Source: the human T2T-CHM13v2.0 reference genome, Homo sapiens. Taken from it: 64,000 nt of DNA. The stretch lies in assembly GCF_009914755.1 (NCBI RefSeq), contig NC_060925.1; one strand, given 5' to 3'. The notes under the pieces were generated by a model, which searched no databases, was not told the origin of the DNA, and worked only from the letters and a program-made list of their open reading frames with translations. This document shows positions 40,946 to 44,354 of this stretch, one piece after another (the first letter of the stretch is position 1; every line of letters begins with the position of its first letter). The translations under genes and the position numbers were made by a program.

Positions 40946-42806
40946 GGCAAACTATCTCTACCCCTATCTCCAATGCAACATGCCATAGTGAAACAGGGCT
41001 GAAAAGCTTCAATAAAAACTTCCATGTGAAGGATGAAGAATGGGAATCACGATCTGCAGTGAATGTGAAATCCTACCTAACAAGGATATCAAGCCCCTCC
41101 TCGCCTTGAGTTTGCTGTCTGGAAGGCACTCCCTGGTCTACTGTTCTCTGTGCCATATCAGTATCTTCTGTGCTCATTAACATCGATGGCCATGCTTGCA
41201 AATGCTTAGATATCTTAAGAGAACCCTTGGACAGAATTTACTTTACAGAATTTGAAAAAATTTGAAAGTTTTTACTGAGTTTTTCCTGACCTTCTCTATT
41301 CTTGCATGTTGGGTAGGGGCTGTGGGTGAAGATAACTGGTCTTTTAATATCATAATTTTCTGGAACAGGAAGAGTTACATAGGACCTGATTGAGAAGATT
41401 GTATATCTTGAACGGGTGAAAATGAAGCTCTTTTGTGGGTGCTATAAAGCATATTAGCAGAGTACTGTTTCCCAAACTTTAACATCTGTAGTTGTGCATT
41501 GTCGCAATGCACATATGCCTCATAATTAGTTTGTATTTTGCTTTATCAAAACTGATAAGAACTGATGAAAAAATTAGACTGGCCTTAGGTTAAAAATGAC
41601 CATGAAATAAGAGCATCGATATGCAAGTTATAAATTATTTTAATATAGATTAAAATATGTATCATAACAGCAATTAAACATGTTATTATTTATCAACTAA
41701 GAATAGTCTTAGTTGTTTATAGCAACACTACCAACAGTAGCCAAGATATGGAATCAAATAAAGACTCAGACTACTCTTAGTTGATAAATAATAACATGTT
41801 AATTGCTATAGTCTACATAAGAACTGATGCCTGCTAATGGACAATATTCTGGACAAATACTATTCCTATTCTCGAAAGACATTTATACACGACTTTAACC
41901 GTTATGTGGTAACTCTTCCTCTGTAGGGCAGAAGCTCTCAAAAATAGAAATATCTGAAGATTGTAGGAACATTTGGGCACTTGAAGAGACATTCTGTAGT
42001 GTACTTTACTTTGAGCTAATTGCTTCTGCAGACTACGGAGCTCAAAGTAGAATCCATAGGAGAGATATCATTGAATATTCCCTGTGCTAGGCAGATACCG
42101 CAGAACCCTCAGCCTCTAGACTAAAACCCCATAATTCTTCCCTATCCCTTTTACTCCTTCACTCATTCCTGCCTCTCCACTCTGGCCTCTGTACACGCTG
42201 GGCATGCTTCTGACTTCAGGTTGTTTTATTAGAAATTCTCTTTACCTAAATATTTATTTTTCCAGACATCCATATGTCTCAACTCCCTCACCTCTTTCTT
42301 TCTCTGCCAAAATGTCAGCTTCTCAATGAGGCCTAACTTGGCAGTACATTCAAGTCATAACAACCCAGTCCACCCATTCTCATTCTTGCAATTACTCACA
42401 CTACTTTATTTTCCATAGCAGTAATATATATTTTTTGCTTTATAATTCTATGTATTATTTATTGCCGTTCAACCTCCAATCATTGCCACTAACATGTAAG
42501 CTCCAGGAGGAAAGGGAATGTCATTTTCCTTCACTCATGTGTTCCAATTAGTGGGACACTGTGGGTATACAGAAAATTTTATGAATGAACACATTAAAGA
42601 GAGAGCTTCATTGACCTAAAATTAAAGAATTCTCTAATTGTCCAGTTGCTACAATCATTCAAACTGCCAGGTGAAGTGGGACCTCCAGTCCTGAGCCTTT
42701 GCCCCAGTGTAGCAACACGGCCGCCTGATCCTTTTAGGAATTCCAGAGGGTTTTTTTGTCAGGTGGGAAATCACCGCCCAGCCTAGTATAGGCTATTCCA
42801 CTTCTT

Positions 42807-43975
42807 TATAACTGGGGCTGCCTGACCGTATAACTGGATATTCTTCATAGCTACCACTCTTAAAATCAGATTCCAGATCCGCATTAGAGAAGCAAGTAAG
42901 TCAGAACTCTTGGTATTCATGTCTTTTTAAATTTTATTTTTATTATTTTTGTTTGTTTGTTTGTTTGCTTTTTGAGACCAAGTTTTGCTCTGTCACTCAG
43001 ACTGGAGTGCAGTGGCACAATCTCTGCTCACTGCAACCTCCAACTCCAGGGCTCCCACCTCAGCCTGCCATGTAGCTGAGATTACAAGCATGTGCCACCG
43101 CACAAAATACAAAAATTAAAAAAAAAATTATATTTTTAGTAAAGATGCAGTTTCACCATGTTGCCCAGGCTGGTCTCGAACTCCCGGCCTCAAATGATTC
43201 ACCCGCCTTGGCCACTGAAGTGCTGGGATTATAGGTGTGAGCCACCACACCCAGCCCATGTCTTTCTTTTTTCTCAAGAAAATATACAAAAAATGTCAGA
43301 ATATGAGATAAGAAAGTTCTCCTATGGCAGCATCTGGATCATTTTCTAGACCACTTTAGTTTCATGGTACGTAATGATGATAATTCTTCTGAACACAATT
43401 CAGAATTTGAACCAACATTTATTGTTTCAGGAAAGCAGAATTTCCTTTGAATGATGGATAAGAATGGTGAAAAAAATGAAAATGGTGAAAAAAAAAAACG
43501 CCAAATAAGAAGTCAGAAGCCATTTATTGTCATAATTGTAGATTTAGATGATTAGAGACTATCCTCTTAGATTAGAGAATTTCCCAGCATTATACGAGCA
43601 TTGATTTATCTTACTTCTACTAACGCCTTCACCTATTTCCTTTAGACTCACCTGAGTTTGAGTAAAAGCAAGGGCAGCGCAGCCTTTTCCACTGCCACCT
43701 GTAATTCTACCTGCAAGGTCCCCTCCAATGCTTAGAGACATGGACCCGAAGTGCCCAGTACCTTACACACCTCCATGGAGCTCACCTTGCCAGTGTCAGG
43801 ACTTGTTCATTCAGCATCCACCTATGGAGTGCCCGACTCTGAAAAGCCCACCTCCCCAAACTGTCTGCCGCACAGTATTCACCCAGCAGTACCCACCACC
43901 CACCGCCACAGTGCCAGCCAGTGGGAAGGCGCTTCTGTCTGCCTAGCAGCCCTCCAAAACGCAAGAAAAGCCTCA
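42807..43975 (+). pseudogene. Putative decayed SPRR4-like gene (exon 1 ending 42895; exon 2 from 43646)
   Basis: Donor GTAAGTcAGAACTC (42896) vs SPRR4 GTAAGTgAGAACTC. Acceptor tttcctttAGactcacctg (43644-43645) vs SPRR4 tttcctttAGgctcacctg. Pro/Cys-rich ORF 43728-43946 whose read-through ...QYPP...VPASGK..SA*QPSKTQEK resembles SPRR4 QCPP...IPAQQK..SAQQASKSKQK. Confidence 0.65.
42930..43256 (-). mobile_element. AluS SINE with an internal deletion and rearranged linker, inside the intron of the putative SPRR relic
   Basis: Antisense Alu with (GTTT)n tail; catgtcttt on both flanks. Confidence 0.88.
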
Positions 43976-44354
43976 AAACTTGCAGGACCAAAACACAACA
44001 CACAGAAATGGTGCTTTCCTTTGGGCGAGTTCCAAATGAACACATTTTCTTCAAAGCCTGTTATGGCTTGAGGTGACATCATCCTTAGGTTACGATAGTT
44101 GGATTTTTATATCTTCCTCTGCATCCAATCTGTTGCATTATGTTATTTTGGCTGAAGTATACAAAGAAAATCTGGTCTCATAAAGATGTAGTTTGCAAAA
44201 TGGATTAATAACTTTTTACATAATTATGGATATTCTTTGACACCATGCCAAATTCAGCAAGTAGTACATACTTTCTTAAAGATTAGTTGCAACATGGAAT
44301 CTCAAACCACATTAACTAATTGTTCATATTCTGTTACATTAAAATCCATTTGTC

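What the first reader, a model, noticed from the sequence alone, without database searches (positions are those of the whole stretch)
42730..43980. Hidden fourth SPRR-family gene (SPRR4-like relic) between SPRR1A and SPRR3, with its two-exon skeleton preserved
Seen in sequence: (a) donor GTAAGTCAGAACTC at 42896 matches the SPRR4 donor GTAAGTGAGAACTC at 13/14. (b) The acceptor and exon start tttcctttAGactcacctg at 43636-43654 matches SPRR4's at 18/19. (c) TATAACTGG occurs twice (42807, 42829), 89 and 67 nt before the donor, versus 74-77 nt in the three real genes; aggaattcc lies upstream as in SPRR4. (d) Exon 2 reads VK..AQPFPLPPV (cf. VKQPCQPPPV), then QCLETW in a shifted frame (cf. KCQETC), then a 72-codon Pro/Cys-rich ORF (43728-43946). 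Reading through its TAG gives SA*QPSKTQEK (cf. SAQQASKSKQK), so one CAG>TAG change would have removed the Q/K-rich tail used for transglutaminase cross-linking. The Q-rich head and ancestral ATG are missing. Inference: a lost SPRR4-like paralogue, possibly still transcribed. The ATG at 43740 has a good Kozak context (gacATGg) and would give a 68-aa microprotein. I do not recall an annotated gene here.
Basis: partly seen in the sequence, partly recalled or inferred. Interest (0 to 1): 0.82.

Follow-up and report, generated by a model that had tools for sequence, protein, structure and literature searches.

The report
Decayed SPRR2-type pseudogene between SPRR1A and SPRR3
This stretch is the worn-down remains of an extra skin-barrier (SPRR) gene that RefSeq does not annotate, but it is related to the SPRR2 genes rather than SPRR4 and looks like an ordinary dead gene copy.

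Summary
It spans about window 42586-44085 on the + strand, possibly reaching 44371. The subfamily assignment is wrong. Whole-locus nhmmer queries from 7 of 7 human SPRR2 loci hit the relic colinearly (E 3e-21 to 2e-8). The matches cover 5' flank, TATA, exon 1, donor, 3' intron, acceptor, coding region and the start of the 3'UTR. SPRR4, SPRR1A, SPRR3 and SPRR1B (0 of 4) gave no hit. A promoter/exon-1 model built only from SPRR2 genes outside the window has the relic as its sole significant hit in the window (E 7.8e-12). Likeness to SPRR4 is confined to two short blocks at the intron ends. The relic keeps its intron, so it is an unprocessed duplicate. It lacks the start codon, has a weakened TATA, lacks the upstream AP-1-like and octamer motifs, carries indels and an in-frame TAG, and matches no Pfam SPRR model. 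Its non-coding divergence from SPRR2A-F is similar to that of SPRR2G, so the lineage is old. I could not test transcription or a 68-72-aa microprotein. This is a new member of a known kind, of modest interest.

The parts
42586..42828 (+). 5' flank homologous to SPRR2 upstream regions. The AP-1-like and octamer positions are decayed.
   Evidence: The whole-gene SPRR2 HMM hits 42590-42912 at E 8.9e-15. Single-locus hits start at 42568-42592. TGA(G/C)TCA is present in 5 of 7 SPRR2 loci and ATTTGCAT in 6 of 7; both are absent at the aligned places in the relic.
42829..42835 (+). TATA-box remnant TATAACT, aligned with SPRR2 TATAAAG/TATAAAA.
   Evidence: Alignments. Six of 7 SPRR2 loci have TATAAA there; SPRR2C has TGTGAA.
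42861..42895 (+). Exon 1 relic (non-coding). The start is inferred from alignment to SPRR2 transcription starts. It is 8 nt shorter than SPRR2 exon 1.
   Evidence: The GATC.GC.TT.GAGAA block is shared with SPRR2A-F.
42896..43645 (+). Intron relic (GT...AG, 750 nt). Donor AAG|GTAAGT lies at 42896. TACTAAC lies at 43618-43624, 22 nt before the AG.
   Evidence: Sequence. The 3' part, 43409-43645, is homologous to SPRR2 introns (E 4e-10 for 43409-43885). The presence of an intron shows an unprocessed duplicate.
42916..43297 (-). Alu-type repeat inserted in the intron. It is not part of the ancestral gene.
   Evidence: It is a masked repeat in RefSeq and matches other repeats of the window on both strands. 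The name Alu and the antisense orientation are my reading of the sequence.
43646..44085 (+). Exon 2 relic: 5'UTR remnant, decayed coding region and the start of the 3'UTR.
   Evidence: The SPRR2 exon-2 HMM hits 43637-43886 at E 5e-7 and 43818-44087 at E 9e-5. Single-locus second hits cover 43815-44072.
43662..43663 (+). Site where the family start codon is missing: a 14-nt alignment gap where 7 of 7 SPRR2 loci have ATG.
   Evidence: last block. There is no ATG between 43646 and 43727.
43680..43703 (+). Remnant of the conserved head (QPFPLPPV versus the family's QPCQPPPV).
43743..43775 (+). Best-kept repeat unit (DPKCPVPYTPP versus SPRR2 PPKCPEPCPPP), in the frame of the 72-codon ORF.
   Evidence: posterior probabilities are highest here.
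43728..43946 (+). 72-codon Pro/Cys-rich ORF ending in TAG at 43944-43946. The second ATG at 43740 has G at -3 and G at +4.
   Evidence: There is no Pfam match and no protein in named sources shares three 5-residue words with it.
43966..43968 (+). AAA at the place aligned with the SPRR2 stop codon TAA.
   Evidence: The SPRR2A/E alignment continues about 100 nt into the 3'UTR.
44359..44371 (+). Two AATAAA motifs about 390-400 nt after the ancestral stop position, where SPRR2 genes have their poly(A) signal. The homology is not shown.
   Evidence: Sequence. SPRR2 3'UTR lengths are 394-398 nt for SPRR2A-F. No significant alignment extends beyond 44087.

Best explanation
This is an old, unprocessed (DNA-duplicated) pseudogene of the SPRR2 subfamily of small proline-rich cornified-envelope genes. 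It lies on the + strand between SPRR1A and SPRR3, apart from the SPRR2 cluster, which is on the - strand.

Shown here:
- The whole gene unit was copied: about 270 nt of 5' flank, TATA, non-coding exon 1, intron and coding exon 2 with the start of the 3'UTR.
- It has since lost its start codon.
- It has weakened its TATA and lost the upstream AP-1-like and octamer motifs.
- It has acquired indels, an in-frame TAG and an Alu in the intron.

Inferred:
- It no longer makes an SPRR protein and is most likely inert DNA.
- The lineage split from the other SPRR2 genes about when SPRR2G did.
- The short SPRR4-like blocks at the intron ends are retained ancestral states rather than signs of SPRR4 kinship.
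For: -: whole-locus single-sequence nhmmer queries from 7 of 7 SPRR2 loci hit 42568/42592 to 43799-43898 (SPRR2G from 43462) at E 3.4e-21 to 2.3e-8. SPRR4, SPRR1A, SPRR3 and SPRR1B (0 of 4) gave nothing at E<=1.
- the SPRR2-only promoter/exon-1 HMM gives E 7.8e-12 and is the sole significant hit in the window. The SPRR2 exon-2 HMM gives E 5e-7.
- in 194 kb (the window plus 13 pieces of 10 kb), the promoter HMM hits only the 5 SPRR2 promoters contained there and this relic.
- homology extends into the 5' flank (E 8.9e-15) and the 3' intron (E 4e-10).
- 54-59% identity to six SPRR2 promoters against 38-42% to SPRR1A, 1B, 3, 4 and 5.
- shuffle controls.
- non-coding K2P distance to SPRR2A-F and 2C is 0.49-0.67, compared with 0.62-0.79 for SPRR2G against the same genes.
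- the ATG is missing where 7 of 7 SPRR2 loci have it, and promoter motifs are lost.
- 0 Pfam hits for three frames.
- there is no other copy in the genome, so it is not a transposon.
- there is no RefSeq gene or functional element there.
Against: - The tree on 175 promoter/exon-1 columns is weak. SPRR2 plus the relic has support 36/44, and the relic plus SPRR2G has 57/48. The AU test does not reject the relic grouping with SPRR4 (p 0.37).
- The acceptor block is significantly SPRR4-like and not SPRR2-like (z 5.8 against 0.3-0.4).
- The all-SPRR exon-2 HMM reaches only E 0.058 on the relic.
- Coding-region alignments lie in low-complexity sequence and differ between methods, so the count and places of frameshifts are uncertain.
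- The splice donor, polypyrimidine tract and branch-point-like motif look intact, which is not what long neutral decay predicts.
- No sequence from another species and no expression data could be examined, so neither inertness nor age is measured directly.
Confidence: 0.85

Rival explanations
1. One reading: a relic of an SPRR4-like paralogue that lost its Q/K tail through one CAG>TAG change.
For: - The donor matches SPRR4 at 13 of 14 and the acceptor with the exon start at 18 of 19.
- The acceptor block scores z 5.8, with 0 of 200 shuffles reaching it.
- The tail aligns ungapped and in frame with the last 33 nt of the SPRR4 coding region at 23 of 33.
- The AU test does not reject relic plus SPRR4.
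Against: - SPRR4-only HMMs of promoter and exon 2 give no hit at E<=0.1. The exon-2 model does find SPRR1A, SPRR3, PRR9 and four SPRR2 genes.
- The whole SPRR4 locus gives no hit at E<=1.
- Promoter identity to SPRR4 is 38.6%, at background level.
- The 3'UTR scores z -1.4.
- Flank and intron homology is found with SPRR2 only.
Confidence: 0.04
2. The relic is still a working transcription unit. It would be a spliced keratinocyte lncRNA like the transcribed pseudogene SPRR2C, possibly translated from the ATG at 43728 or 43740 into a 72- or 68-aa Pro/Cys-rich peptide.
For: - The splice donor is consensus, with a pyrimidine tract, an AG and TACTAAC 22 nt upstream.
- The first ATG of a spliced transcript would open the 72-codon ORF.
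- AATAAA lies at a family-typical distance.
- SPRR2C is reported as transcribed (PMC8386546, passages) although its TATA reads TGTGAA.
Against: - RefSeq has no transcript model or functional element there.
- The promoter motifs shared by most SPRR2 genes are lost.
- No named-source protein resembles the ORF.
- Open frames are common here: another frame has 1 stop in 140 codons, so the open ORF is not evidence of coding.
- The ORF lacks the Gln-rich head and Lys-rich tail.
Confidence: 0.08
3. The old promoter has been kept as a cis-regulatory element (enhancer) for neighbouring SPRR genes, while the coding part decays.
For: The promoter/exon-1 block is the best-preserved part (40 bits). The relic's branch in non-coding parts is no longer than those of working SPRR2 genes (my three-point calculation from the distances).
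Against: No RefSeq enhancer is listed at 42500-44400, whereas two are listed upstream of SPRR4. The AP-1-like and octamer motifs are lost. No conservation data could be examined.
Confidence: 0.06
4. Chance resemblance in Pro/Cys-codon-rich, low-complexity DNA, or a transposon fragment.
For: There is no Pfam hit. Plain blastn against the window finds only the 19-nt acceptor match at E 1.
Against: The homology is strongest in the non-coding, non-repetitive parts, with E down to 3e-21, and it is colinear over 1.3-1.5 kb. Shuffles never reach the observed scores for 5 of 6 SPRR2 promoters. The region is single-copy in the genome, and only the Alu is masked.
Confidence: 0.01

Closest known systems
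SPRR2C (human transcribed SPRR2 pseudogene, in the SPRR2 cluster)
   Same: Both are SPRR2-type, unprocessed, have the two-exon unit, lie in the epidermal differentiation complex and have an altered TATA.
   Different: SPRR2C is nearly intact. It scores 139 bits against the SPRR2 promoter HMM, compared with 40 for the relic. It is reported as disabled by one recent nonsense change and as expressed (PMC8386546, passages). The relic is far more diverged, lacks the ATG, lies outside the cluster on the other strand and has no known transcript.
SPRR2G (most divergent working human SPRR2 gene)
   Same: Its non-coding distance from SPRR2A-F is comparable. It shares states around the TATA, GGGCTGCCTG.CC with an extra 1-2 nt before TATAA, and it lacks the octamer. 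It is the weakly supported sister of the relic in the tree (57/48).
   Different: SPRR2G keeps an intact ORF and 81-86% coding identity to the other SPRR2 genes, compared with 69-73% over 176 of 221 columns for the relic.
SPRR4
   Same: It shares near-identical short blocks at the donor (13 of 14) and at the acceptor with the exon-2 start (18 of 19), and a possible in-frame tail alignment.
   Different: There is no detectable homology of promoter, flank, intron or 3'UTR.
SPRR3-like pseudogene under the last exon of lncRNA LOC105371446 (found in passing, outside the window)
   Same: It is another SPRR copy in the same cluster that RefSeq does not annotate as an SPRR, and it is also unprocessed with promoter and exon 2.
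   Different: It is much younger: its exon 2 is 89% identical to SPRR3 (569 of 639 aligned bases). It is SPRR1/3-type, and it is covered by an annotated lncRNA.

Membership tests
SPRR / simple EDC gene family | Location inside the epidermal differentiation complex among SPRR genes | tested here: met
   It lies between SPRR1A (34747-36480) and SPRR3 (52366-54508) (annotation given).
SPRR / simple EDC gene family | Two exons: a short non-coding exon 1 about 30 nt after a TATA box, a GT-AG intron, and the whole coding region in exon 2 | tested here: met
   The skeleton aligns position by position with SPRR2 genes. The TATA is weakened to TATAAC.
SPRR / simple EDC gene family | An intact ORF starting about 18-21 nt into exon 2 with an MS.QQ head and ending in a Lys-rich tail | tested here: not met
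   The ATG is absent (14-nt gap where 7 of 7 SPRR2 loci have it). There are stops at 43653 and 43659 in that frame and a TAG at 43944. It is therefore filed as a pseudogene, not a gene.
SPRR / simple EDC gene family | Protein match to Pfam Cornifin (PF02389) or SPRR2 (PF14820) | tested here: not met
   There are 0 families at E<=10 for three stop-free frame pieces. The control SPRR4 gave Cornifin at 3.1e-5 and SPRR2 at 0.016, both below the curated cut-offs.
SPRR2 subfamily | DNA homology to SPRR2 loci in parts that differ between subfamilies (5' flank, exon 1, intron, 3'UTR) | tested here: met
   Seven of 7 SPRR2 loci hit it and 0 of 4 others do. HMM E-values are 7.8e-12, 8.9e-15 and 4e-10.
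SPRR2 subfamily | Monophyly with SPRR2 genes in a tree | tested here: inconclusive
   The best tree places it with SPRR2G inside SPRR2, but support is 36/44 and 57/48. The AU test does not reject SPRR4 as sister (p 0.37) (175 columns).
SPRR2 subfamily | Tandem nonapeptide repeats (PKCPEPCPP type) | tested here: inconclusive
   One unit is recognisable at 43743-43775. Tandem Repeats Finder finds no array in 43600-44100.
SPRR4 | Homology to the SPRR4 locus beyond the splice-site flanks | tested here: not met
   There is no hit at E<=0.1 or at E<=1. Promoter identity is 38.6%.
Processed (retrotransposed) pseudogene | No intron, no parental promoter, poly(A) tail | tested here: not met
   The intron and upstream flank are homologous to the parent family.
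Transposable element | Many dispersed copies; masked as a repeat | tested here: not met
   Only self matches were found in the whole genome for 42640-42915 and 43600-44110. Only 42916-43297 is masked.

The most novel reading that the evidence does not exclude
The relic is not dead. It would be transcribed from its weakened promoter in differentiating keratinocytes and spliced at 42895^43646. It would then act as an SPRR2C-like regulatory RNA, or be translated from 43728 or 43740 into a 68-72-aa Pro/Cys-rich peptide that lacks the transglutaminase head and tail. A milder version is that it is a human or primate unitary pseudogene of an SPRR2-type gene that is still intact at this position in other mammals.
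Probability: 0.08. Interest if true: 0.5.

Novelty: new member of a known kind. Interest (0 to 1): 0.3.

Why it matters
Recent comparative papers count 12 human SPRR genes (PMC8192740 and PMC11039687, passages). This relic is a further SPRR2-type locus that RefSeq does not annotate, and it is not mentioned in any paper that my four searches returned. It places an SPRR2-type gene between SPRR1A and SPRR3, on the opposite strand to the present SPRR2 cluster. That is a marker for reconstructing how the cluster was built by duplication and inversion. Together with the SPRR3-like copy found under LOC105371446, it shows that the human SPRR cluster holds more dead copies than the annotation suggests. 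This matters for read mapping, for gene counts in comparative work and for interpreting variants in the interval. It does not by itself change what is known about barrier function.

Tried and rejected
- Plain blastn of 42400-44400 against the window (word size 7) found only Alu matches and the 19-nt SPRR4 acceptor match at E 1. Pairwise BLAST is too weak here; profile and probabilistic searches were needed.
- Whole-genome BLAST of both exon regions found only the region itself.
- The protein word search with the 72-aa ORF found no candidate. It sees only named-source proteins of 40-126 aa, so a blank means little.
- Pfam found nothing for three frames.
- The tree and AU test on 175 columns could not settle the subfamily. 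I rely on the locus-wide homology instead.
- The all-SPRR exon-2 HMMs performed worse than the SPRR2-only ones (E 0.058 or no hit), probably because the mixed alignment is poor.
- Tandem Repeats Finder found no repeat array.
- A scan of the whole SPRR cluster was only half done.
- Literature searches returned no paper that mentions a human SPRR relic between SPRR1A and SPRR3. One search did not find the SPRR2A promoter study. Names for the SPRR2A promoter elements (octamer, ISRE/Ets, GT box, AP-1) are recalled from Fischer et al. 1996 and Cabral et al. 2001, which I did not see. The motifs themselves are read.
- Supplementary tables of PMC8192740, which list human EDC genes, were closed and might list pseudogenes.
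- The age estimate is rough. K2P 0.5-0.65 is of the order of the human-mouse neutral distance (a recalled value), so the split is probably as old as or older than the placental radiation. No orthologous sequence was available to date the gene's death.
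Full report
**What is there**

The region was read. RefSeq lists no gene or functional element between SPRR1A and SPRR3. 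The only masked repeat near the finding is 42916-43297, which I read as an antisense Alu. It matches other repeats of the window.

- the donor at 42896-42909 (13 of 14 with SPRR4);
- the acceptor and exon start at 43636-43654 (18 of 19 with SPRR4; blastn row);
- TATAACTGG at 42807 and 42829;
- AGGAATTCC at 42737;
- the readings VKARAAQPFPLPPV, LQCLETW and SA*QPSKTQEK;
- the 72-codon ORF at 43728-43946;
- the ATG at 43740 in gacATGg.

**Is it more than chance?**

Plain BLAST says little. Within the window only the 19-nt acceptor match appears (E 1), and in the whole genome only the region itself is found. Profile searches are decisive.

I extracted promoter, exon 1, donor, acceptor and exon 2 of the annotated simple EDC genes and built nhmmer models.
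- A promoter/exon-1/donor model made only from SPRR2A, B, D, E, F and G, none of which lies in the window, hits 42763-42911 at E 7.8e-12 (40 bits). The next hit in 64 kb has E 0.69.
- In 194 kb (the window plus 13 pieces of 10 kb of the SPRR cluster), the same model finds only the five SPRR2 promoters contained there and this site. Those five include SPRR2C, which was not used for training.
- The SPRR2 exon-2 model hits 43637-43886 at E 5e-7, and with the 3'UTR it hits 43818-44087 at E 9e-5.
- Smith-Waterman scores against 200 dinucleotide shuffles give z 3.6-12.9 for the six SPRR2 promoters. Between 0 and 4 of 200 shuffles reach the observed score.

**Which subfamily?**

A model of whole SPRR2 loci (seven genes, with flanks and intron) hits 42590-42912 at E 8.9e-15 and 43409-43885 at E 4e-10. 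Homology therefore includes about 270 nt of 5' flank and about 240 nt of the 3' intron.

To avoid favouring the larger family, I repeated the search with single loci.
- Seven of 7 SPRR2 loci hit the relic colinearly (E 3.4e-21 to 2.3e-8).
- SPRR4, SPRR1A, SPRR3 and SPRR1B give nothing at E<=1.
- SPRR5 gives only two stray matches at E 0.1-0.3.

SPRR4-only, SPRR1/3-only and SPRR5-only models of promoter and exon 2 give no hit on the relic at E<=0.1. The SPRR4 exon-2 model does find SPRR1A, SPRR3, PRR9 and four SPRR2 genes.

In a MAFFT alignment the promoter/exon-1 block is 54.4-58.8% identical to the six SPRR2 genes (85-94 of 150-160 columns). It is 38.2-42.3% identical to SPRR1A, 1B, 3, 4 and 5.

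Evidence that points the other way:
- The tree on 175 columns is weakly supported. The relic plus SPRR2G has 57/48, and SPRR2 plus the relic has 36/44. The AU test does not reject a relic-SPRR4 pair (p 0.37).
- The acceptor block is significantly SPRR4-like (z 5.8) and not SPRR2-like.
- The last 33 nt before the SPRR4 stop align ungapped at 23 of 33. They compete with a longer gapped SPRR2 alignment (116-132 nt, into the 3'UTR) that reads the tail in another frame, PPKRKK against SPRR2 PPKSK-stop.

I take the SPRR4-like intron ends as shared ancestral states. LORICRIN and PRR9 also start exon 2 with GCTC, and the relic's ACTCACCTGAG lies between SPRR4's GCTCACCTG and SPRR2's AT(T)C(T)CTGAG. 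This is an inference, and it remains the least explained feature.

**State of the gene**

- Alignment columns where 7 of 7 SPRR2 loci have ATG are a 14-nt gap in the relic. There is no ATG from 43646 to 43727.
- TATAAAG/TATAAAA (6 of 7 loci) is TATAACT in the relic.
- TGA(G/C)TCA (5 of 7) and ATTTGCAT (6 of 7) are gone.
- TTCCACTTCC reads TTCCACTTCT, and GGGTGGGG reads AACTGGGG.
- Exon 1 is 8 nt shorter than in SPRR2 genes.
- The coding part shows a 2-nt and a 4-nt gap around 43727-43742, several insertions, and a TAG at 43944. AAA stands where SPRR2 genes have TAA. Exact indel placement is uncertain in this low-complexity sequence.
- The three frames give no Pfam match, and the ORF has no look-alike among named-source proteins.
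- Open frames are common here: one other frame has a single stop in 140 codons. The 72-codon ORF is therefore not evidence of coding.
- The splice signals look intact: AAG|GTAAGT, TACTAAC at 43618-43624, and a pyrimidine tract followed by AG.

**Age**

On HMM match columns, non-coding K2P distances of the relic to SPRR2A-F and 2C are 0.49-0.67, and to SPRR2G 0.55-0.79. SPRR2G to the same genes gives 0.62-0.79. Coding identity is 69-73% over 176 of 221 columns, against 81-86% for SPRR2G. The relic's lineage is thus about as old as the SPRR2G split. By comparison with the recalled human-mouse neutral distance, it is probably as old as or older than the placental radiation. When it died cannot be said without other species.

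**Mechanism**

This is a duplicated, not retrotransposed, SPRR2-type gene that decayed in place. It is most likely inert (confidence about 0.85 for an SPRR2-type unprocessed pseudogene, lower for inert).

The rivals are:
- an SPRR4-like origin (largely refuted);
- a surviving transcript or microprotein (untested; the SPRR2C precedent is in PMC8386546, passages);
- an exapted regulatory element (untested);
- chance or a transposon (refuted).

**Literature**

- PMC8192740 (passages and section 5) and PMC11039687 (passages) count 12 human SPRR genes. PMC11039687 mentions pseudogenised SPRRs in the dugong.
- PMC10791643 (passages) places the SPRR family in stem mammals.
- PMC5222828 (passages) does not mention pseudogenes.
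- None of the papers returned by searches mentions this relic.
- Supplements were closed.

**In passing**

- An SPRR3-like pseudogene lies outside the window. Its promoter/exon 1 is at chr1:152158451-152158582 (E 1.8e-20). Its exon 2 is at 152160672-152161342 (E 8.9e-165), is 89% identical to SPRR3 and contains stops. It coincides with the last exon of lncRNA LOC105371446.
- An SPRR2 exon-2 head fragment lies at chr1:152331553-152331645.
- An inverted copy of the SPRR1/3 3'UTR end lies inside the SPRR3 intron at window 53212-53393.

Noticed in passing
outside the window: L023:8451-8582 and L036:672-1342 (chr1:152158451-152158582 and 152160672-152161342, + strand): An SPRR3-like unprocessed pseudogene lies between SPRR3 and SPRR1B. 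Its promoter/exon 1 scores E 1.8e-20 against the SPRR1/3 model. Its full exon 2 scores E 8.9e-165 and is 89% identical to SPRR3 exon 2 (569 of 639 aligned bases), with stops in the SPRR frame. Its end coincides with the end of lncRNA LOC105371446, whose first exon lies in the window at 59521-61824.
   Followed up: partly
window 53212-53393 (- strand): An inverted copy of the last ~175 positions of the SPRR1/3-type exon 2 (3'UTR end) lies inside the SPRR3 intron (E 3.2e-31; also seen). It overlaps the alternative SPRR3 exon annotated at 53279-53362.
   Followed up: no
L032:1553-1645 (chr1:152331553-152331645, + strand), outside the window: A short fragment matches the acceptor and head of SPRR2 exon 2 (E 1e-8). 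It lies between SPRR2G and LELP1, and no promoter match was found nearby in that 10-kb piece.
   Followed up: partly
window 42896-42909 and 43636-43654: Both ends of the relic's intron carry short blocks nearly identical to SPRR4 (13 of 14 and 18 of 19), although the rest of the locus is SPRR2-type. Retained ancestral states or a small conversion tract could explain this; the question is not resolved.
   Followed up: partly
window 30939-31072 (- strand): A weak match (E 0.0023) to the 3'UTR part of the all-SPRR exon-2 model lies between SPRR4 and SPRR1A. It may be another fragment or chance.
   Followed up: no
L010 (SPRR2C promoter, chr1:152278225-152278384, - strand): The annotated transcribed pseudogene SPRR2C has TGTGAAG where the other SPRR2 genes have TATAAAG. 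A damaged TATA box therefore does not by itself exclude transcription in this family.
   Followed up: no
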